Origin: an uncultured Bacteroidales bacterium
GTDB lineage: Bacteria > Bacteroidota > Bacteroidia > Bacteroidales > JAADJA01
Direction of reading: 5' to 3'
Assembly: GCA_963705185.1 (NCBI GenBank)
Contig: CAVPJF010000014.1
Span: 49,655-113,654 of the forward strand
DNA length: 64,000 bases
A model generated the notes under the pieces. That model ran no database searches and had not been told where the DNA came from. It was given only the letters and a program-made list of their open reading frames with translations. Both the position numbers and the translations under genes were made by a program. This document shows positions 46,957 through 60,775 of the stretch, in pieces. Each line of letters begins with the position of its first letter. Position 1 is the first letter of the stretch.

Positions 46957-47372
46957 CCCATATTTGCATCTTCCTTCATATCAAAATCACGAATATAGGG
47001 CTTAATGTCAAGCAAGGGTGTGCCATCCAAAATATCCAGTCCGGACGTATAAATCCGGTTGCCTTCAATTTTTTTTATTTTGGCAATGGTTAACCCAATT
47101 GGGTTGATCCTGTTTGGAGAACGTGTGGCCCAGAGTCCAACTTCAATGCCATTGCCTCTTGGAGGAAAAACCCGCATTTTAGGTTCTCTTTTCGGCTTGT
47201 GAAAATGGAAAACAAGATAACAATAATTCAATTTGTCAAGAAGGTAAAGTCCATCAGTGTATTCAGGGTTCAATTCAACGCAGAATTCACCCTCAACATT
47301 TTCAAAGTCGGTATGAGGTGCATCATCCTTGTAAGGAGTATGGATGATACCGATAGGAAAAAGGTTTATCAT
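46929..47372 (-). CDS. trmO: tRNA (t6A37) methyltransferase TrmO (TsaA/YaeB family)
   Basis: Motifs IGIIHTPY, RSPNRINPIGL and LDGTPLLDIKPY are present. Confidence 0.85.
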   Translation of the reverse strand: MINLFPIGIIHTPYKDDAPHTDFENVEGEFCVELNPEYTDGLYLLDKLNYCYLVFHFHKPKREPKMRVFPPRGNGIEVGLWATRSPNRINPIGLTIAKIKKIEGNRIYTSGLDILDGTPLLDIKPYIRDFDMKEDANMGWIETKSNI

Positions 47373-48304
47373 TTAATTTGATCTTTGAGCCATGAATACC
47401 AGGCATCCATTCCTTCACCAGTTTTCACTGAAAGTTCGAAGAATTTTAAATGATGGTTGACCTGCATGGCATATTCCTTTGCTTTTTCAATACTAAAATC
47501 AACATAAGGAAGAAGATCTGTTTTATTGATAATGCAGACACTCGACGATTGAAACATGGTTGGATATTTCAAGGGTTTATCATCGCCTTCCGTTGTGCTG
47601 ATGATGACAACGCGCTCAGCTTCTCCCAAATCAAAAAGGGATGGGCAGACGAGATTACCAACGTTTTCGATAACCAATATTGAATTTTCGGCAACATTTA
47701 ATTCCTTAACAGCTTTATTTACCATGTCCGAATCGAGATGGCATCCGTTCCCTGTGTTGATCTGAACCACAGGAGCTCCGGCAGCGTGGATCCGGTTGGC
47801 ATCGTTCATGGTTTGCTGGTCGCCTTCAACTACAAAGAATTTGATTTCTTTCCCGAGGTCTTTGATGGTCTTTTCCAAAAGACTTGTCTTGCCTGATCCA
47901 GGAGAACTTACCAGATTAATCGCAAAAATATTTTTAGCCTCAAAAAATCCGCGATTTCGCTCAGCAAGCAGGTTATTCTTCGATAAAATGTCCTGCTCAA
48001 CCCGGATTTCCCTTCCATGCGAATGATGGTGATCGTCACTATGATGATCATGAGCATGACCTTCTTCATGATGATGGTGATCATGATCGTGGGTATGTGA
48101 ATGAGCGCTATGAATATGACTATGATCGTGATCGTGGGGATGAATATGCTTATGTTCATGAGCATGTGAATGTTTGGTTCCATCATGATCGTGCTCATGT
48201 TCGTGTTGATGAACATGTTCGTGATGATGTTCCTGAGAATTTTGTTCGCCGGGCTTCCTGATGGTTAATCCATCACCATGGCCGCAACCGCAAGTATCGC
48301 ACAT
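47369..48304 (-). CDS. hypB: hydrogenase nickel incorporation GTPase HypB with long His-rich N-terminal tract
   Basis: It has the N-terminal MCDTCGCG metal site, a ~75-aa His/Asp/Glu-rich stretch, the P-loop SSPGSGKT and a G-domain. Confidence 0.9.
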   Translation of the reverse strand: MCDTCGCGHGDGLTIRKPGEQNSQEHHHEHVHQHEHEHDHDGTKHSHAHEHKHIHPHDHDHSHIHSAHSHTHDHDHHHHEEGHAHDHHSDDHHHSHGREIRVEQDILSKNNLLAERNRGFFEAKNIFAINLVSSPGSGKTSLLEKTIKDLGKEIKFFVVEGDQQTMNDANRIHAAGAPVVQINTGNGCHLDSDMVNKAVKELNVAENSILVIENVGNLVCPSLFDLGEAERVVIISTTEGDDKPLKYPTMFQSSSVCIINKTDLLPYVDFSIEKAKEYAMQVNHHLKFFELSVKTGEGMDAWYSWLKDQIK

Positions 48305-48365
48305 ATAGATTTAAGATATTAGACGTTAGAAATAAGATGTTAGATTTTTATTGCAAAGATATTGT

Positions 48366-48707
48366 TTATTCAACTTTAAGAGATTTTACCCGGAGTTCTT
48401 TGCCCTGGAAAATATCTGAAAATGGATTGCTGCATTTCGGGCAGGGTGTAAAAAGGTCGGCTGTTTCAAATTCATGTCCGCAGGAAGAGCATCTGGCCAG
48501 GGCAGGAATTTCATGAATTATCCATTTTGCTTTTTCGAGCATGGTTCCAATTTTAGCAGATTCGATAGCAAAATCCAAAGCCTCCCTGACTACACCAGCC
48601 TGGGAGCCTATATCAAGCTCAATTTCATTGATCACAGAAGCATTTGCTTTTTTAGCATTTTCTTCTGCAATTTCGATGATGCTCATGACAATTGAAAGCT
48701 CATGCAT
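48366..48707 (-). CDS. hypA: hydrogenase maturation nickel metallochaperone HypA
   Basis: It has the MHELSI N-terminus and the zinc motifs CSSCG and CPKC. The start is taken at the internal Met of ORF 48366..48722. Confidence 0.85.
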   Translation of the reverse strand: MHELSIVMSIIEIAEENAKKANASVINEIELDIGSQAGVVREALDFAIESAKIGTMLEKAKWIIHEIPALARCSSCGHEFETADLFTPCPKCSNPFSDIFQGKELRVKSLKVE

Positions 48708-48711
48708 AGGA

Positions 48712-48761
48712 TTAAATTCCAAACTTATTAAATTCCAAAAACCAAAGGATTAAATTCCAAA
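48712..48761. repeat. three copies of TTAAATTCCAAA in the hypA / 4HB spacer
   Basis: Copies start at 48712, 48728 and 48750. Roughly complementary TTTGGATTTT words lie at 49203-49225 on the other side of the 4HB gene. Confidence 0.7.
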
Positions 48762-48795
48762 CTTTATAAACTCCAAAAGCCAATTAAAAGAGTTT

Positions 48796-49158
48796 TCATT
48801 TTCCAGATTTCTTGTTTACTATTGAGTTGAATATCATTTTCAACTCATTTGCCTCATTAACTTGTGAATCAAATTCTTTTTCCAGTGATGCATCATTCGT
48901 TGCCTTTAGAAGCTTTAGCCAAAAAGCACTTTCTTTTGCTTCCTTACGGCAAATTTTAAACCGAAAAATAGCATCCTTCGTTCCCAGATTTTCATTTGCT
49001 TCGATATAATTTGCGCCAACAGAACCGGATGATTTGATTACTTGCTTTGAGTACTCAATATTTGAAATTGTTTTTGGAAGTTTATTTACCAACCTGGCAA
49101 TTTCCAAAGCAAATAGAAAGGTTCTTTCTCCAAGGTCGTAAGGCTTTTCACTCATCAT
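48796..49158 (-). CDS. four-helix-bundle protein (23S rRNA intervening-sequence protein / Avd-like family)
   Basis: A 120-aa protein with the family signature SSGSVGANYIEANE...ICRKEAKESAFWLKLL. Confidence 0.8.
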   Translation of the reverse strand: MMSEKPYDLGERTFLFALEIARLVNKLPKTISNIEYSKQVIKSSGSVGANYIEANENLGTKDAIFRFKICRKEAKESAFWLKLLKATNDASLEKEFDSQVNEANELKMIFNSIVNKKSGK

Positions 49159-49223
49159 TTAAATTTTTACATTCTTCATTTTTGGTACTCCACAATTGGT
49201 ATTTGGATTTTTGATTTTGGATT

Positions 49224-50238
49224 TTAACATATTCTCGGCAATTGCTCCCCCGCCAGCATATCAATGATCCTTCTTCCGCCAATACCAGTCGTCAGCCAGG
49301 CTCTTCCATGATGATCATCAACAACTTCCCCGATAATTGCAGCATCTTTCCCTAATTCATTTTTCCTTAAAACTTTCAGAACCTGATCTGCATCCTCTTT
49401 TCCAACCACCATCACTACCTTGCCTTCATTTGCAACATAAAGCGGATCGAACCCAAGCAGCTCGCACATTCCCCTCACATTCTCGTTTACCGGTAAAGCA
49501 GCTTCATCTATTTCAATTCCAAATCGTTTGTTTTCTGAAAGCTCACACAGGACAGTTGCCAGTCCGCCACGTGTAGCATCGCGCATAAACCTCATTTGAT
49601 CAGTTACAGCAAGTGCCTGCTTTATCAGATGGTTCAGACAGGCACAATCCGACTGAATATTGGTTTTAAAACTGAGTTCCTCCCTTGCTGCCATTACAGC
49701 CATTCCATGATCAGCGATGGTTCCGTTGATGATGATTTTATCACCCGGCTTAATTTCCGAACCAGTTCCAATTGATAGATGCCTGGGTTCAATTTCTCCA
49801 ACACCTGTTGTATTGATGAACACCTTGTCGCATTTCCCGCGGTTGACAACTTTCGTATCACCTGTGACGATCATTACTCCAGCTTTTCTTGCTTCTTCTG
49901 CCATTGACTTCACAATTATTTCAAGGTCAGCAAAAGGCAAACCTTCTTCAATAATAAATGATGCGCTCAAATACAATGGTTTTGCTCCCGAAACGGCCAG
50001 ATCATTCACGGTTCCGGCCACAGCCAGTTTGCCAATATCACCCCCGGGAAAAAATATCGGATCAACGACAAAGGAATCGGTCGTAAAAGCAATCTGTCCG
50101 GTGGCAATATTTACGACAGCAGCATCGGTTTGCTGCTGTCAAGACATTATTTGAAAAATATTTTACAAACAAGTCTTTGATCAAATCGTGCGACAATTTG
50201 CCTCCGCTGCCATGACCAAGAAGTATTGTTTTACCCAT
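49224..50238 (-). pseudogene. hypE: hydrogenase expression/formation protein HypE, one frameshift near 50130
   Basis: The N-terminus MGKTILLGHGSGGKLSHDLI lies in ORF 50062..50259. The body and the C-terminal ...GEQLPRIC lie in ORF 49224..50021. Confidence 0.9.
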
Positions 50239-50240
50239 AA

Positions 50241-50280
50241 TTTTAGTCAATTTAGTCAATCCAAATTTTAGTCAATTTCC
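50241..50280. repeat. TTAGTCAAT word repeat, copy 1 (direct orientation)
   Basis: The sequence is ttttagtcaatttagtcaatccaaattttagtcaatttcc. The 21-mer tttagtcaatttagtcaatcc sits at 50242-50262. The repeat lies 2 nt upstream of the hypE start and 5 nt downstream of the hypD stop. Confidence 0.85.
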
Positions 50281-50285
50281 TATCC

Positions 50286-51369
50286 TTAATCCCTGTTGTA
50301 CCTGTAATAAGCATGACACGAACCTTCGTGCGAAACCATGCATGCACCCACCGGGTTTTCGGGTGTACAAGCTTTCGCAAAAAGCTTACAATCTTTCGGA
50401 TTTTTAATGCCTTTTAAAATCTCCCCGCAAATACAGCCTTTATCTTCCCTTGTTGGCTCTACCTCAACCGGAATCTGAACTTCAGCATCAAATTCAGCAT
50501 ATTTCTCTCTTATTTTTAAGCCGCTTTTCGGAAGAACACCCAAACCGCGCCACCAGTCATCACGAAGCTCGAAAACCTCTTCCAGCATTTGCTGTGCCTT
50601 GATATTCCCTTCAGGTTTAACAACACGTGTATAGGCAATTTCAACCTTCGGCTCATTTTTCTCAATCTGGTTGACCAGCATCAGGATGGCTTTAAGCAAA
50701 TCCACCGGTTCGAAACCACTTATAACGACTCCCAGTTTATATTTCTCAGGTATGTTTTTGTAAATGGAAATTCCGGTAATCGTACTCACATGACCCGGAG
50801 CAATGTAGCCATCCAGTTTTACGCCTTCATCAATCAAAGCTTCCATTGCCGGCGGCATAACCTTATGCGAACTGAACACAAAAAAATTCCTGAGTTCCTG
50901 CCTTCTGTGCATTGATGATGCCTGCAGCCGATCCAGGAGCTGTGGTTTCAAATCCGATACCCAGAAAAACTACCTTTTTATCTTTATTAGCATCTGCAAT
51001 CTTAAGTGCATCCAAAACCGAATAAACGATCCTGACATCAGCGCCATTGGCTTTTTCCTGGTCAAGTGTTGAAGTTGAACCCGGAACCCGGATCAAATCG
51101 CCATAAGTAGTGATGATCACATCCTCCAATCTTGCATAAGCAATCGCCTGGTCAATATACTTCCGGTCGGAAACACAGACAGGGCATCCCGGACCGGAGA
51201 TCAGTTTTATTGTTGGAGGAAGTAACGATGGTATCCCAAACTTCTGGATCGACATCGTATGCCCGCCACAAACTTCCATCAGGGAGATGGGTTTGGTGGA
51301 GGCTTTTTTGATCTGGTCAACCAATTTTTGAACAAGACCTTTGTCTCTATATTCATCAATATATTTCAT
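50286..51369 (-). pseudogene. hypD: hydrogenase formation protein HypD, one frameshift near 50900
   Basis: ORF 50863..51369 contains MKYIDEYRD...MEVCGGHT...GPGCPVCV. ORF 50286..50951 carries the C-terminal part with CxxHxH-type Cys/His residues. Confidence 0.9.
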
Positions 51370-51370
51370 G

Positions 51371-51411
51371 TTGATTGACTAGAATGTGGATTGACTAAAT
51401 TGACTAAAATG
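51371..51411. repeat. TTAGTCAAT word repeat, copy 2 (inverted orientation)
   Basis: ggattgactaaattgactaaa (51388-51408) is the exact reverse complement of the 21-mer at 50242-50262 and 51884-51904. Confidence 0.85.
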
Positions 51412-51424
51412 AGAAAAATAAACA

Positions 51425-51829
51425 TTATGTGCTGTTTTCATAAGATGTTTTACTGATTGAAGTAAATAATGCTAGAAATTCTTTTGCTTCCTTAAATTCC
51501 TCACTAATTTCTTGCGGTTTCAGCCATTCCATCAGTATTACAATTGTTAGCCAATATACAGTTTCACTTGATTCACTTTCGCAAATCTTAATCTTATTTC
51601 TGAAATCAGCCCGGCTTCTGGCTCTGTTTGCTTCCCTGTAGTTTGCACCAATTGATGTTCCTGCTTTGGCCAATTGGTTCCGCACAATTTTACCTTCAGG
51701 TGTATTTGGGAGTTTGGCTGAAAGTTTTATGATTTTTACAGCAAAATGAGTAGTTCTTTCTTCCAGTTTCCGGGCAAACTCCTTTGGATCAATCTTGTAT
51801 CTTTCATTATATTCTTCCACCAAATTCAT
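51425..51829 (-). CDS. four-helix-bundle protein (23S rRNA intervening-sequence protein / Avd-like family)
   Basis: A 134-aa protein with the signature AGTSIGANYREANRARSRADFRNKIKICESESSETVYWL. Confidence 0.8.
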   Translation of the reverse strand: MNLVEEYNERYKIDPKEFARKLEERTTHFAVKIIKLSAKLPNTPEGKIVRNQLAKAGTSIGANYREANRARSRADFRNKIKICESESSETVYWLTIVILMEWLKPQEISEEFKEAKEFLALFTSISKTSYENST

Positions 51830-51862
51830 TTCAATCTGTTTAAATCAATAATTTATTCAATT

Positions 51863-51904
51863 AAAATTTTAGTCAATCCAAACTTTAGTCAATTTAGTCA
51901 ATCC
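51863..51904. repeat. TTAGTCAAT word repeat, copy 3 (direct orientation)
   Basis: The sequence is aaaattttagtcaatccaaactttagtcaatttagtcaatcc. It abuts the hypC stop codon. Confidence 0.85.
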
Positions 51905-52168
51905 TCACACAATCCTCTCCCCCGTTTTCCTCTCCTCCTCATCCAGTTTTATATTCAGCTCCTCAAATTCCTCAAAAACCTTCAACGATTCCAAAGCTTC
52001 CTCTTCACTCATCTTCTGAATTGCAAAACCGGTATGCATCAAAATATAATCACCAATTTTTACATCATCCAGCATTTGCAGACTCGCGTTGTATTTGGTC
52101 CCCCCGACGGATACCAGCGCCATTTCTCCGTCAATTTGCTCAACTTTTGCAGGTATGCTTAAACACAT
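51905..52168 (-). CDS. hypC: hydrogenase assembly chaperone HypC/HupF family
   Basis: It has the N-terminal MCLSIPAKV with the conserved Cys2. Confidence 0.85.
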   Translation of the reverse strand: MCLSIPAKVEQIDGEMALVSVGGTKYNASLQMLDDVKIGDYILMHTGFAIQKMSEEEALESLKVFEEFEELNIKLDEEERKTGERIV

Positions 52169-52188
52169 TTCGATTTACGATTTTAGAT

Positions 52189-54477
52189 TTAAGAATTACG
52201 ATTTATTAGACCCAACTCCCTTCGCTTCGCCGCCACGGCCAACTGCCCCAGCGCAATTCCCCCGTCATTCGATGGAATTTTACACTGCGAAAATACTTCA
52301 AACTTTTCCCTTGCCAGAATTAATTCCAGCCGGCTAAGAATATATTTATTCTGAAAGGTTCCTCCGGACAAGGCTACCTTGTTCAGTCCTGTCTCTTTCC
52401 TGATCTGGCTGACCACCGCAAAAATCACATTGATTATCGTGTTGTGAAATTTTGCTGATATCTCTGACACATTTACTCCATCCTTTAAATCCTGAACAAT
52501 TTCCTGTATTGTTGGTTCAAAAGAAATCACTTCGCCAAAATCGAAAGGATATGCAATTTCAATTGTTCCCGAAGCGAAATTTTCAAGCCTCATGGGTGCT
52601 TCAGCATGAAATTTTGAAACAGGACAAACATTTGTTATTGCTGCCACTGCATCAAACAACCTTCCGGCGCTGGAGCTCAGCGGACAATTGATATTTTTAT
52701 CTATTGCCTGAACGATCAAATCAGCTTTGATTTTATCCAGGTTTTGGATAAACGGAATTTCAAGTTTCAGGAATTCCTTTCCATAAATTTTATACAAGTA
52801 CGAAACAGCTGTCCGCCAGGGTTCTTTGGTTACCGAATCACCACCCGGAAGCGGGATATATTCAAAATGGAATTTCCGTTCATAGCCCGCCAGGTCACAT
52901 ACAAAGAATTCCCCGCCCCAGATATTGCCGTCATCACCGTAACCCGTTCCATCCATGCTCACACCAATAACCTTTTCGTCAAGGTTATGCTCCGCCATGC
53001 ACGATGCAATATGTGCATGATGATGCTGGACTTCTACGATCGGGATTTTCAAATCCTTTGCAAACCTTGTGGATAAATAATCAGGGTGCAAATCACAGGC
53101 AACCAATTCTGGCCGGACCCGAAATAGCTTTTTAAACCGTTCAAACGACTCCGTATAAAATTCCAAAGTCTCCAGGTTTTTCAAATCACCGATGTGCTGG
53201 CTCAGGATAGCCTGATTTCCTTTTCCGATGCAAAAACAATTCACCAGTTCAGCCCCGGCAGCAAAAATCCCGTCAACATTCAGATTCAGGTTTACCGGTT
53301 CAGGGGAATATCCTCTTGAGCGACGGATCAACCGTTCTTTTTCATTTACACTGATAACCACCGAATCATCGGTACGATTATAAATCTCACGGTTATAAAC
53401 AATAACTGCATCAGCAATCCTGGTGAGTTTTTTTACAGCTTCATTGTTTTCAATAACAATCGGTTCGTCAGACAAATTACCGCTCGTAAGCACAATCGCC
53501 GGCATCTTCAGCTTTTCAAAAAGCAAATAATGAAAAGGCATGTATGGCAGCATGGCGCCGATGGTTCTGAACCCGACACTCACTCCAGAAGCCAGCTTTT
53601 TCTTTTCCTGTCGCAATCACAATCGGTCTCCGCCAGCTCTGAACCGACTTCTTCTCTTCAGGGTACAGATGAACATAACTCCTGCAAGGTTTCGACATTC
53701 CTGAACATCACCGCAAACGGCTTTCCTTCCCTCACTTTTCGTTCGCGCAGACGGTTCACCGCCTCTTCATTTTGTGCATCGCAGGCAATCTGGAAGCCAC
53801 CAATCCCCTTGATGGCAATAATTTTCCCGGCTTCAAGCAGCGAACAGGTTTCAGATAATATTTCAGGGAATGATTTCACCGATCTGTCTCCAATGATCAG
53901 CTCATATTCCGGTCCGCAAACCGAACAGGCAACCGGTTGCGCATGAAACCGCCGGTCCAGCACATCTTCATATTCTTTCCTGCAGGTATCGCACATTTTA
54001 AAAGGCTCCATCGTGGTCAGGTGCCGGTCGTAAGGCAAATCCTTAATGATCGAAAAGCGCGGGCCGCAATTCGTGCAATTGATAAATGGATAATCAATCC
54101 GGTGCGGTTGTAACTTTAAATCTTCAAGGCAGTCATTACAAACAGCTATATCAGGACTGATATCGGTAACCTGGTCCGAGGTGTTTTCACTTTTTACAAT
54201 CCTGAAATCAGAAAAGTCTTCTTTCGGAACTAGCTCTAAGAAAATTTCTGTTAATGGCAGAAGCTGGAGGAGCTTGTTCCCGGATGACTCTGATGAATGT
54301 TTCAACTGACTCGGGATTTCCCTCAATATGAATAATTACTCCGTCATTACGATTCTCTACCCATCCATTCAAATAATACTGATGGGCAAGACGATAAATA
54401 TATGGCCTGAATCCAACACCCTGGACCCTTCCATGTATGTGTATACGATTTGCAATATATTCCTTCCGTCCAACCAA
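52189..54477 (-). pseudogene. hypF: carbamoyltransferase HypF, about two frameshifts
   Basis: ORF 54208..54477 is the acylphosphatase domain (GRVQGVGFRPY). ORF 53658..54326 holds two CxxC-x18-CxxC zinc fingers and a YrdC-like domain. ORF 52189..53616 is the Kae1-like domain. Confidence 0.9.
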
Positions 54478-54715
54478 ATTTTATCAACTTGTTTTTCAGG
54501 TTTGTATTACCTGAATTGTTGCAAAAATATGTTTTGTTAATCAAATCCATATTTCTAATTTTTGCCCTGGCAACATATCTTCAGATATTTATTTTTTACC
54601 ATTTAATTGAACCGAAAGATATTTTCTTTACTTTTATTCGCTCAAAGTTGCTTAATGAATAGTTGATTTTTTTAAATATCTTTACTTTTTATTAACAAAT
54701 TAAAGGGAAGTTCCT

Positions 54716-55123
54716 ATGACAAAAACAGTTTCGCTGAGAGTAAAATGTCCCCATTGCGGAAATTCTTTTATGGATTCGGAAATAATGCTGCACGAAGCTC
54801 CCAGCATCAAGTTAAACATCGAAACCCCCTCTGATAGAGGAACGATAAGACTTTGTTCGATTTATGGATGCTATGATCATCTATGTGATTTTGATTTAAA
54901 AAAAGGTGAAATTGCGCGGGTATTCTGCCCAGCCTGTAACAAGGAATTAAAAAGCAATGACGAATGCGATGTAGCAAACTGCAACGCTCCCATGATTCCA
55001 TTCATACTCGAACTGGGTGGGAAGGTATTTATCTGTTCAAGGTACGGTTGCACCAATCACTTCGTTGCATTCGAGGACCTGGAAACCCAGCTTAGGAGGT
55101 TTTATCATGAATACGGGGAGTAA
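54716..55123 (+). CDS. Cys-rich protein with two tandem CPxC...CSxYGCxxH modules (putative double zinc ribbon)
   Basis: A 135-aa protein divergent from hypF. Module 1 is C11/C14...C47/C52/H55 and module 2 is C71/C74...C107/C112/H115. Confidence 0.5.
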   Translation: MTKTVSLRVKCPHCGNSFMDSEIMLHEAPSIKLNIETPSDRGTIRLCSIYGCYDHLCDFDLKKGEIARVFCPACNKELKSNDECDVANCNAPMIPFILELGGKVFICSRYGCTNHFVAFEDLETQLRRFYHEYGE

Positions 55124-60403: not shown

Positions 60404-60437
60404 AAACCAGAAACAAGTCAACAAGCAACCAGCAACC
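60404..60437. repeat. GGTTGCTGG word repeat (inverted copy) just downstream of the YkoF-like gene
   Basis: The reverse complement ggttgctggttgcttgttgacttgtttctggttt matches 60723 onward (19 of the first 21 nt by eye). Confidence 0.7.
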
Positions 60438-60440
60438 ATG

Positions 60441-60683
60441 TCACTTAAGGTCTGCATTCACAATTTTCAAAATAAACACCGAATGCGGCAGCTCGAACGA
60501 TTTTTCGATTTCGGTGGTCAGGGCTTTCATCACAGCCTTGTATTCACCAAAAACCTGCGTGCTCATGCCGTTGGTAACGGCTTCGATGTCTTTATGTGCT
60601 TTCAGCCTTTTAATAAAATCGAGGATGGGCGTTACAAACTCAGGCCTGAGAGGGTAATAGCTTATTTCGACGGATGTTTTCAT
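60441..60683 (-). CDS. YkoF/MTH1187-like thiamine-binding family protein (small)
   Basis: MKTSVEISYYPL...NGMSTQVFGEY...VFILKI resembles the ~80-aa MTH1187/YkoF repeat as I remember it. The start is taken at the internal Met of ORF 60441..60707. Confidence 0.5.
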   Translation of the reverse strand: MKTSVEISYYPLRPEFVTPILDFIKRLKAHKDIEAVTNGMSTQVFGEYKAVMKALTTEIEKSFELPHSVFILKIVNADLK

Positions 60684-60720
60684 GTTGTGTGTTTTAATAA
60701 AGGGCAAAAATATTAAATAA
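60667..60720. repeat. 54-bp direct repeat, copy A (5' end and upstream region of the YkoF-like gene)
   Basis: It shares tcgacggatgttttcat and ataaagggcaaaaatattaaataa with 63532-63585. Confidence 0.8.
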
Positions 60721-60722
60721 AA

Positions 60723-60775
60723 GGTTGCTGGTTACTTGTTACAAGTTACTTGCTACCGGATACTTGTGGCTGGTT
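60723..60775. repeat. GGTTGCTGG word repeat (direct copy)
   Basis: The sequence is ggttgctggttacttgttacaagttacttgctaccggatacttgtggctggtt. Confidence 0.7.

What the first reader, a model, noticed from the sequence alone, without database searches (positions are those of the whole stretch)
50241..51904. A 21-nt sequence occurs three times (direct, inverted, direct), bracketing hypD and the 4HB gene, and could form IVS-like stems
tttagtcaatttagtcaatcc is present at 50242-50262 and 51884-51904. Its exact reverse complement is at 51388-51408. Each copy is embedded in a ~40-nt TTAGTCAAT word array that abuts a start or stop codon (hypE start, hypD start, hypC stop).

In the minus-strand transcript the middle copy can pair with either outer copy. 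Pairing with 51884-51904 gives a perfect stem of at least 21 bp enclosing just the 4HB ORF (a ~475-nt loop). Pairing with 50242-50262 encloses hypD.

Established knowledge: rRNA intervening sequences that host this protein family are excised by RNase III at such long stems.

Inference: the repeats may act as an RNase III processing or insulation signal, as alternative mutually exclusive structures controlling hypD versus 4HB expression, or as the termini of a small mobile cassette.
Basis: partly seen in the sequence, partly recalled or inferred. Interest (0 to 1): 0.65.

Follow-up and report, generated by a model that had tools for sequence, protein, structure and literature searches.

The report
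Repeat-armed four-helix-bundle gene cassette
The three identical 21-base repeats are the two mirror-image ends of a small gene cassette wedged between two hydrogenase-maturation genes, plus one gene-less repeat array of the same word; that word accompanies this protein subfamily in at least five bacterial phyla, which links an orphan protein family to its own flanking repeats.

Summary
In detail: the exact 21-mer lies at 50242(+), 51388(-) and 51884(+), with none expected by chance. Each copy sits in a roughly 40-nt array of the 9-nt word TTGACTAAA that fills a gene spacer.

Arrays A (51860-51904) and B (51370-51424) are the inverted arms of a cassette. It carries a PF05635 ("23S rRNA intervening-sequence protein") gene and is inserted flush between the hypC stop and the hypD start. 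Ten congeners have the cassette at the same site; seven others have hypC and hypD 0-11 nt apart.

The protein is under purifying selection (dN/dS 0.04-0.15) although synonymous sites are saturated. Arm complementarity persists in 10 of 11 genomes.

In 52 loci of this protein subfamily from five phyla, the word TG(N)CTAAA lies sense upstream and antisense downstream. Other PF05635 loci lack it. A second subfamily, which includes the neighbouring cassette, has its own word.

Array C (50241-50285) is a gene-less array that is also present in the nearest congener. B-C pairing is computed to be stronger than A-B, but only this genome has all three arms, so a dedicated RNA switch is unlikely.

The parts
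51860..51904 (-). Arm A, the upstream (sense-word) array of the 4HB1 cassette. On the mRNA strand it reads GGATTGACTAAATTGACTAAAGTTTGGATTGACTAAAATTTT and begins directly after the hypC stop codon (51905-51907).
51425..51829 (-). 4HB1 gene, 134 aa, PF05635 (23S rRNA intervening-sequence protein, or four-helix-bundle family). It is the cargo of the cassette.
   Evidence: E 4.6e-17. PDB 2RLD, E 6.5e-19; dN/dS 0.04-0.15 among orthologues.
51370..51424 (-). Arm B, the downstream (antisense-word) array. On the mRNA strand it reads ...CAUUUUAGUCAAUUUAGUCAAUCCACAUUCUAGUCAAUCAAC and ends 3 nt before the hypD ATG (51367-51369). It is complementary to both A and C.
50241..50285 (-). Array C, a gene-less solo array of the same word in sense orientation. 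It fills the whole hypD-hypE spacer and is nearly identical in the nearest congener (L013), where arm B is of another word class.
51905..52168 (-). hypC, the host gene upstream of the insertion.
50286..51369 (-). hypD, the host gene downstream of the insertion. Here it is split by one extra base near 50894; it is an intact 359-361 aa in most congeners.
49224..50240 (-). hypE. It starts at the ATG at 50238-50240, directly after array C, and is split by one extra base near 50135.
48723..49223 (-). Second cassette of the same design between hypE and hypA: 4HB2 ORF at 48796-49158 with inverted arms of a different word (AAATCCAAA upstream, TTTGGAATTT downstream).
   Evidence: flank-complementarity rank 8 of 3442 genes..

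Best explanation
The three 21-mers belong to three arrays of the 9-nt word TTGACTAAA. Arrays A and B are the inverted arms of a self-contained cassette (sense-word array, short leader, 4HB gene, antisense-word array). The cassette was inserted exactly between the hypC stop and the hypD start. Array C is a gene-less array of the same word family in the next spacer.

Shown here:
- The cassette is gained, lost and replaced as one unit.
- Its protein is under strong purifying selection.
- Arm complementarity persists although silent sites are saturated.
- The word TG(N1-2)CT(A/T)(A/G)A, in fixed orientation relative to the ORF, accompanies this 4HB subfamily across at least five phyla. Another subfamily has another word.

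Inferred:
- In the polycistronic hyp transcript the arms pair and loop the insert out, as in 23S rRNA intervening sequences. The stem is then a probable RNase III substrate, which would limit damage to the host operon.
- Because the word sequence, and not just the pairing, is conserved with the protein, the encoded four-helix-bundle protein is the most likely reader of its own words. The purpose of that recognition (mobility, maintenance or processing) is unknown.
- The B-C pairing that encloses hypD is a by-product of a solo array of the same word lying nearby, not a dedicated regulator.
For: - The repeats are exact and non-random.
- Ten congeners have the 4HB gene at the same hypC|hypD site, always between inverted word arrays that run from the stop codon to the start codon. 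Seven other loci (six congeners and one genome of another family in the order) have hypC and hypD 0-11 nt apart.
- In the hypD tree the occupied loci form one 13-row group. One empty member, L022, is nested with 100/98 support; its 9-nt spacer AACTCACTC looks like one leftover word.
- The cassette is mosaic. Against L013, nucleotide identity is hypC 89%, 4HB 71% and hypD 83-87%. Against L019 it is about 78% throughout.
- Among orthologues, dN/dS is 0.04-0.15 with dS above 1.5.
- Arm duplexes are -28 to -88 kcal/mol, with z of -3.2 to -7.2 against shuffles, in 10 of 11 loci.
- In this genome, 5 of 9 called 4HB genes rank in the top 82 of 3442 genes for flank complementarity.
- In 30 other Bacteroidota genomes, 22 of 30 PF05635 loci exceed the 95th percentile of non-cognate flank pairs.
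- In 52 loci of the 4HB1 subfamily from Bacteroidota, Thermodesulfobacteriota, Planctomycetota, Calditrichota and Marinisomatota-labelled MAGs, there are 122 sense against 5 antisense words upstream, and 108 antisense against 19 sense words downstream. Twenty-eight diverse PF05635 loci have about none.
- The 4HB2 subfamily has its own word.
- The cassette alone folds with the A-B stem closing it, z = -3.6.
- Gene-less hairpins of the same word occur elsewhere in the genome, z = -7.2 and -4.0.
- The Coxiella intervening sequence has the same anatomy and is excised by RNase III (PMC4990558).
Against:
- No movement was observed directly. The presence/absence pattern fits one old insertion plus two losses and one replacement, so this copy may move very rarely.
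- No target-site duplication is visible.
- Inverted word arrays also bracket at least one non-4HB gene in this window (YkoF-like, 60404-60775). Many arrays are gene-less, so arrays are not strictly bound to 4HB genes.
- One orthologue (L024) has weak arm pairing, z = -1.8.
- Counts of word dimers in congeners track presence of the gene (p = 0.003), but a reversed control pattern differs too (p = 0.011). Two genomes have many arrays without the gene.
- Linked sequences diverge together, so word-protein co-inheritance alone does not prove recognition.
Confidence: 0.78

Rival explanations
1. Three-arm RNA switch. Arm B pairs alternatively with A (looping out the 4HB gene) or with C (looping out hypD), and this sets the relative expression of 4HB and hypD.
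For: Both pairings are strong: A-B is -35.3 and B-C is -42.7 kcal/mol. The full-length equilibrium fold uses B-C (34 pairs). A-B would form first during transcription and is the structure found when C is blocked; the difference between the two folds is 15.5 kcal/mol.
Against: Only this genome has all three arms among the 11 occupied orthologous loci. L013 has C but an arm B of another word class. L019 has A and B but a toxin-antitoxin pair in place of C. Other genomes have 11-36-nt hypD-hypE spacers with no word array. There is therefore no conservation and no covariation for B-C.
Confidence: 0.08
2. Generic intergenic low-complexity arrays made by replication slippage and unrelated to the 4HB gene. 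The inverted layout would then be chance.
For: Word arrays of many kinds litter the spacers of this genome. Some are solo, and some bracket non-4HB genes.
Against: The word is specific to the protein subfamily, has a fixed orientation relative to the ORF, and is kept across five phyla. 4HB genes are strongly enriched among genes with complementary flanks. Toxin-antitoxin inserts at the neighbouring junction have no such arrays.
Confidence: 0.04
3. Ordinary terminal inverted repeats of a non-autonomous transposon (MITE-like) that is moved by a transposase encoded elsewhere. The 4HB gene would be a passenger.
For: The arms are inverted, there are occupied and empty sites, and gene-less hairpins with the same word exist in the genome.
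Against: No target-site duplication is seen. The arms are tandem arrays with a variable number of units (2 to about 20), not fixed-length ends. The only gene that travels with the word across phyla is the 4HB gene, and it is under purifying selection.
Confidence: 0.08
4. DNA-level invertible or deletable segment. The 21-24-bp repeats would serve as recombination substrates that flip the 4HB gene or hypD, or delete both.
For: The repeats are exact, 21-24 bp long, and occur in both orientations.
Against: In all 11 orthologous loci the 4HB gene has the same orientation as the hyp genes. No inverted or A-C-deleted form is seen among congeners.
Confidence: 0.02

Closest known systems
ORF-bearing intervening sequences (IVS) of 23S rRNA (Coxiella burnetii helix 45, Leptospira, Brucella, Xanthomonas; PMC4990558)
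   Same: The cargo is a single PF05635/S23p four-helix-bundle gene. Terminal inverted repeats form a stem of more than 20 bp that encloses the ORF. Tandem short repeats lie in the arm next to the ORF; in Coxiella these are GACAGAT heptamers whose copy number differs between strains. Both are sporadically present or absent among relatives.
   Different: The host is a protein-coding operon spacer (hypC|hypD), not an rRNA helix. RNase III excision is shown for the rRNA elements and is untested here. In Coxiella the ORF is decaying and thought not to be expressed, whereas here it is under strong purifying selection. The arms here are made almost entirely of word arrays.
Avd, the accessory protein of diversity-generating retroelements
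   Same: Both are related to the S23p/PF05635 four-helix-bundle family. From my own knowledge rather than a test here, Avd forms a pentamer and acts as a nucleic-acid-binding partner.
   Different: There is no reverse transcriptase and there are no template/variable repeats in the locus (ORF list). The flanks are inverted word arrays, not a DGR layout.
MITEs, and the REP/RAYT systems of bacteria
   Same: Both have short inverted-repeat elements, some gene-less, scattered in intergenic spacers. Both suggest an autonomous/non-autonomous relationship between a gene-carrying copy and gene-less hairpins. A true RAYT with REP hairpins exists in this genome.
   Different: There is no transposase-like gene and no target-site duplication. 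The arms are tandem arrays of variable length, and the word differs by 4HB subfamily.

Membership tests
ORF-bearing 23S rRNA intervening sequence | Inserted in a 23S rRNA helix (helix 25 or 45) | tested here: not met
   The insert lies between the hypC stop and the hypD start. There is no Rfam or rRNA match in 48000-53000.
ORF-bearing 23S rRNA intervening sequence | Carries a PF05635 (S23p / IVS protein) ORF | tested here: met
   PF05635 at E 4.6e-17, 62.6 bits against a cut-off of 33.8. PDB 2RLD at E 6.5e-19.
ORF-bearing 23S rRNA intervening sequence | Terminal inverted repeats form a long stem enclosing the ORF | tested here: met
   A 21-nt exact repeat, extended to 23+3 bp, forms the closing stem in both the minimum-energy and centroid folds, z = -3.6. 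The same holds in 10 of 11 orthologues.
ORF-bearing 23S rRNA intervening sequence | Excised from the host transcript by RNase III | not testable with these tools
An RNase III gene is present in the genome.
Diversity-generating retroelement (Avd) | Adjacent reverse transcriptase and template/variable repeat pair | tested here: not met
   The ORFs at 47000-55000 are hyp genes, two 4HB genes and small spurious frames. None of the 7 ORFs scanned against Pfam is a reverse transcriptase, and nothing RT-sized lies between the hyp genes.
MITE / TIR transposon | Target-site duplication flanking the terminal inverted repeats | tested here: not met
   The occupied junctions read TGA|GGATTG...CAATCAAC|ATG. 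The empty sites read TAA|aa|ATG. No duplicated bases are present.
MITE / TIR transposon | Same terminal sequence in all copies within a genome | tested here: inconclusive
   Different 4HB loci in this genome have different words. Gene-less hairpins and solo arrays do share the TTGACTAAA word.
Word-array-armed 4HB cassette (working class, not a published family) | Subfamily-specific word: sense array upstream and antisense array downstream of the ORF | tested here: met
   Upstream there are 122 sense against 5 antisense words, and downstream 108 antisense against 19 sense, in 52 loci.
Word-array-armed 4HB cassette (working class, not a published family) | Present or absent as a unit at an otherwise conserved gene junction | tested here: met
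   Ten other occupied loci against seven empty ones with 0-11-nt spacers.

The most novel reading that the evidence does not exclude
PF05635 four-helix-bundle proteins may be sequence-specific readers of the short tandem words that flank their own genes. Gene plus arms would then form a minimal autonomous element. The gene-less hairpins and solo arrays of the same word (such as array C) would be its non-autonomous or relic copies. The classic 23S rRNA intervening sequences would be one niche of this much larger class that colonises operon spacers across phyla.
Probability: 0.3. Interest if true: 0.85.

Novelty: new variant of a known kind. Interest (0 to 1): 0.66.

Why it matters
The S23p / 23S-IVS protein family is very widespread: it was found in 92 of 121 sampled genomes of this phylum, often in 5-18 copies. 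More than 30 years after rRNA intervening sequences were found, it still has no known function.

This locus shows three things:
- The stem-plus-gene design is not confined to rRNA.
- The insert sits exactly at operon gene junctions and is gained, lost and swapped as a unit.
- The repeat word is tied to the protein subfamily across phyla.

The last point turns "unknown function" into a bench question: does each protein bind its own word array? It also offers an origin for many of the short tandem-repeat arrays that fill intergenic spacers in these genomes. My full-text searches found no description of this layout outside rRNA. That is absence in the held library, not proof of novelty.

Tried and rejected
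- Cognate versus non-cognate arm test among the hyp orthologues. It separates only two word classes (TTGACTAAA in L012 and L019 against the rest). Within the larger class the cognate arm is not the best partner, because all share the word. This is not base-by-base covariation.
- Exact-repeat and strict blastn scans for inverted repeats. They were too strict for imperfect word arrays. My first crude gene calls also missed the 4HB gene, so I replaced them with codon-scored calls and Smith-Waterman flank scores.
- Whether gene-less arrays track presence of the 4HB1 subfamily among congeners: inconclusive. The reversed control pattern differs too, and two genomes have many arrays without the gene.
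- Rfam: no match.
- Phage records: no relative. Plasmids: only distant relatives below 45% identity, mostly cyanobacterial, so no transfer vehicle was identified.
- Literature: two full-text searches found nothing on inverted word arrays around PF05635 genes in operons.
- Rejected readings: a dedicated three-arm switch (not conserved), chance low-complexity sequence (word specificity), and an invertible segment (constant orientation).

Full report
**Observation.**
The 21-mer TTTAGTCAATTTAGTCAATCC occurs exactly three times, at 50242-50262 (+), 51388-51408 (-) and 51884-51904 (+). None of 100 shuffles gave a match, even with up to 3 mismatches allowed. All eight copies of the 9-mer TTAGTCAAT in the window lie in these three places, against 0.8 expected.

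The genes run on the minus strand in this order: hypF, hypC (52168-51905), a PF05635 four-helix-bundle gene here called 4HB1 (51829-51425), hypD (51369-50286), hypE (50240-49224), a second PF05635 gene 4HB2 (49158-48796), hypA and hypB.

- Array A (51860-51904) begins directly after the hypC stop.
- Array B (51370-51424) ends 3 nt before the hypD ATG.
- Array C (50241-50285) fills the whole hypD-hypE spacer.

Apart from one large inverted duplication on another contig, the 24-nt (B/C) and 21-nt (A/B) matches are the longest exact inverted repeats 150-2500 nt apart in the 3.6-Mb assembly.

**The arrays are the arms of a cassette.**
I retrieved the hypD neighbourhood from relatives and annotated it. 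Ten genomes of the same genus carry an orthologue of 4HB1 at the same hypC|hypD junction. In every one, the spacers from the hypC stop to the 4HB start and from the 4HB stop to the hypD start are inverted word arrays.

Seven other loci (six congeners and one genome of another family in the order) have hypC and hypD overlapping or 2-11 nt apart. The whole 0.5-0.7-kb block (array, gene, inverted array) is therefore an insertion relative to an empty site. No target-site duplication is visible.

In a hypD tree the occupied loci fall in one 13-row group. One empty locus, L022, is nested with two occupied ones at 100/98 support. Its 9-nt spacer AACTCACTC looks like a leftover word of the neighbouring lineage's arm. 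This fits one old gain followed by losses.

The cassette is also mosaic. Against the nearest congener (L013), nucleotide identity is hypC 89% and hypD 83-87%, but 4HB1 only 71%. Against L019 everything is about 78%. At least one lineage therefore exchanged the cassette as a unit, and the arms changed word class together with the gene (TTGACTAAA in this genome and L019; AGTGNCTAAAGT-type words in the others).

**The gene and the pairing are both maintained.**
Orthologues of 4HB1 have dN/dS of 0.04-0.15 while dS exceeds 1.5. Two of the 11 copies are broken. At that divergence, unconstrained spacers would be randomised.

Even so, the arms of 10 of 11 loci form duplexes of -28 to -88 kcal/mol, with z of -3.2 to -7.2 against dinucleotide shuffles. 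The eleventh, L024, is weak (-12.3 kcal/mol, z = -1.8). The cassette of this window, folded alone, closes with the A-B stem in both the minimum-energy and centroid structures (z = -3.6).

**The design is general for the family.**
This genome has 12 PF05635 matches. Inspection shows inverted arrays of a different word at most of them: GTTCGAAGT, GGGGCATGG, AAGAAACAAG and AAATCCAAA.

- With codon-scored gene calls, 5 of the 9 called 4HB genes rank within the top 82 of 3442 genes for complementarity between their two flanks. 4HB1 ranks 4th and 4HB2 ranks 8th.
- In 30 PF05635 loci from 30 other genomes of the phylum, 22 exceed the 95th percentile of non-cognate flank pairs.

**The word belongs to the protein subfamily, not to the host.**
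This is the main new result. Close relatives of 4HB1 (57-70% identical) turned up in MAGs labelled Bacteroidales, Flavobacteriales, Desulfobacterales/Syntrophaceae, Pirellulales and other Planctomycetota, Calditrichota and Neomarinimicrobiota. Their flanks carry the same word family, for example AGTGCCTAAAGTGAACTAAAGT upstream and ACTTTAGGCACTTTAG downstream.

In 52 loci with an intact ORF, the motif TG(N1-2)CT(A/T)(A/G)A gave these counts:

| Flank | Sense | Antisense |
|---|---|---|
| Upstream | 122 | 5 |
| Downstream | 19 | 108 |

The 28 diverse PF05635 loci have essentially none. TTGACTAAA is thus the local one-base variant of GTGACTAAA, homogenised over all units of both arms.

A protein tree needs at least six changes of phylum label, which is consistent with transfer between phyla. 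MAG binning errors are a caveat for single records, but not for the many records per phylum.

A second subfamily confirms the principle. Relatives of 4HB2 (46-60% identical, 24 loci) carry (T/C)(T/C)CCAA(A/T) words at 0.54 per locus upstream and 0.96 downstream. The other two sets have 0.02-0.19. The 4HB1 word is absent from the 4HB2 loci. Orientation is less strict in this subfamily.

Pairing alone does not require a particular sequence, so something reads the word. The only gene that travels with it is the 4HB gene. That is an inference, not a demonstration, because linked sequences also diverge together.

**Array C and the three-arm question.**
C is a gene-less array in sense orientation. 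It is almost identical in L013, where arm B is of the other word class and cannot pair with it. L015 retains a degenerate first word. L019 has arms A and B of the TTGACTAAA class but a nucleotidyltransferase/HEPN-like pair in place of C. Several genomes have only 11-36 nt there.

| Pairing | Duplex energy | Pairs when it forms in the full fold |
|---|---|---|
| B-C | -42.7 kcal/mol | 34 |
| A-B | -35.3 kcal/mol | 23 |

The equilibrium fold of the 1751-nt transcript uses B-C. A-B appears only when C is blocked, with a difference of 15.5 kcal/mol between the two folds. During transcription A-B would form about 1.1 kb earlier.

Because the three-arm layout is unique to this genome among 11 occupied loci, I rate a dedicated switch as unlikely (about 8%). 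I read C as a solo or relic array of the same element family.

The same word forms gene-less hairpins at G000:C15:24536-24625 (z = -7.2) and C16:39390-39465 (z = -4.0). The loop of the first retains the sequences that adjoin the arms in the full cassette (TTGAATAA... and ...TCATTTTAGTCAAT), as expected of an internal deletion. Further arrays of the word lie at about six other spacers.

Counts of word dimers in congeners are higher where the subfamily gene is present (mean 8.2 against 2.8, p = 0.003). A reversed control pattern differs as well (p = 0.011), and two genomes have many arrays without the gene. This test is therefore inconclusive.

**How it probably works.**
- Shown: a discrete unit with a conserved protein, maintained arm pairing, a subfamily-specific oriented word, and flush insertion at gene junctions. 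The downstream neighbour is co-oriented in 45 of 52 loci by crude ORF calls.
- Inferred by analogy: the arms pair in the host transcript and are cut by RNase III, as shown for the Coxiella 23S intervening sequence. That element has a 28-bp terminal stem, tandem GACAGAT heptamers of variable number next to the S23p ORF, and RNase III excision in vitro (PMC4990558). An RNase III gene is present here.
- Speculative: the base of the stem brings the hypC stop and the hypD start together. Ribosomes ending hypC could then open the region before the hypD ATG and preserve coupling.
- Not explained: how the element moves, and what benefit, if any, the protein gives the host.

**Comparison with known systems.**
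The cassette shares with the rRNA intervening sequences the cargo family, the closing stem and the tandem repeats. It fails the defining feature of lying in 23S rRNA, so it works like an IVS but is not a member in the strict sense. It is not a DGR (no reverse transcriptase was seen in the locus) and not a classical MITE (no target-site duplication, variable array arms). I class it as a new variant of a known kind.

Two full-text searches found no description of this layout in operons.

Earlier notes of this scan report the same design in many genomes. I treated them as leads and re-tested the main claims here.

**Limits.**
- There are no expression data.
- The organism is an uncultured Bacteroidales MAG, 72% complete.
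- hypD, hypE and hypF carry single-base frame breaks that may be assembly errors.
- The ORF-based neighbour calls are crude.

Noticed in passing
window 50894 (hypD), about 50135 (hypE), and 53616-53658 (hypF pieces): hypD, hypE and hypF are each split into two frames. For hypD and hypE the cause is one extra base relative to the nearest congener, and neither lies in a long homopolymer. hypD is an intact 359-361 aa in most relatives. This is either decay of the hyp operon or assembly error in a 72%-complete MAG.
   Followed up: partly
window 48723-49223: A second cassette lies between hypE and hypA: 4HB2 with inverted AAATCCAAA / TTTGGAATTT arms. Its relatives across the phylum keep a CCAAA-type word. 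It is present in L013, L016 and L022 and absent in others.
   Followed up: partly
L014, L019, L023, L026, L028 (hypD|hypE junction); L017, L020, L025 (after hypE): In congeners the same hyp junctions hold other small inserts: two-gene pairs that look like toxin-antitoxin systems (nucleotidyltransferase/HEPN-like, RelE-like) and GIY-YIG-like genes. None has word-array flanks. I named these from the sequences by eye and did not scan them against Pfam.
   Followed up: no
G000:C15:24536-24625 and G000:C16:39390-39465: These are gene-less hairpins built from the same TTGACTAAA words (z = -7.2 and -4.0). Each lies within 150-550 nt of another 4HB gene. The loop of the C15 copy resembles the inner ends of the 4HB1 cassette, as if the ORF had been deleted.
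   Followed up: partly
G000:C20:96986-97041, C4:8270-8327, C32:92916-93011, C15:65019-65110: A small GC hairpin (CTCCCAAAGGGATGCCTTTGGCA and variants) recurs in or next to TTAGTCAAT-type word arrays; in three of the four places direct (not inverted) words lie on both sides of it. This is a different arrangement of the same word.
   Followed up: no
window 60404-60775 (G000:C14:110095-110361): A YkoF-like small gene, not PF05635, is bracketed by inverted GGTTGCTGG-type arrays. Its flank-complementarity score is 18, in the top 1% of genes. Array brackets are therefore not exclusive to 4HB genes.
   Followed up: partly
G000:C33:94025-94324 and G000:C1:37602-38225: A GIY-YIG-like gene sits inside a 25-nt imperfect inverted repeat and has the top flank score in the genome. 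An IS200/RAYT-like gene is flanked by REP-type hairpins (ACTCATCCGATGACTT...).
   Followed up: no
G000:C26:89856-92992 and G000:C34:126415-128356: Two further sets of inverted word arrays were found. On C26, GAAATTGGAAATT words occur at three sites 1.5-1.6 kb apart, including a gene-less hairpin. On C34, AGTAGTTAGTAGTGAGTA arms lie 1.9 kb apart. The motif TTCCCTATCTTTGAACC recurs beside several of these arrays.
   Followed up: no
G000:C1:46549-49174: This is a large, near-perfect inverted duplication with arms of up to 370 nt exact, within coding-like sequence. It is either an inverted gene pair or an assembly artefact.
   Followed up: no
window 51895-51915: The last codons of hypC (AGGATTGTG TGA) resemble the first word of arm A (GGATTGACT). 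The same is seen in L019. This may be chance, or a hint that the word variant was seeded by the target sequence.
   Followed up: no
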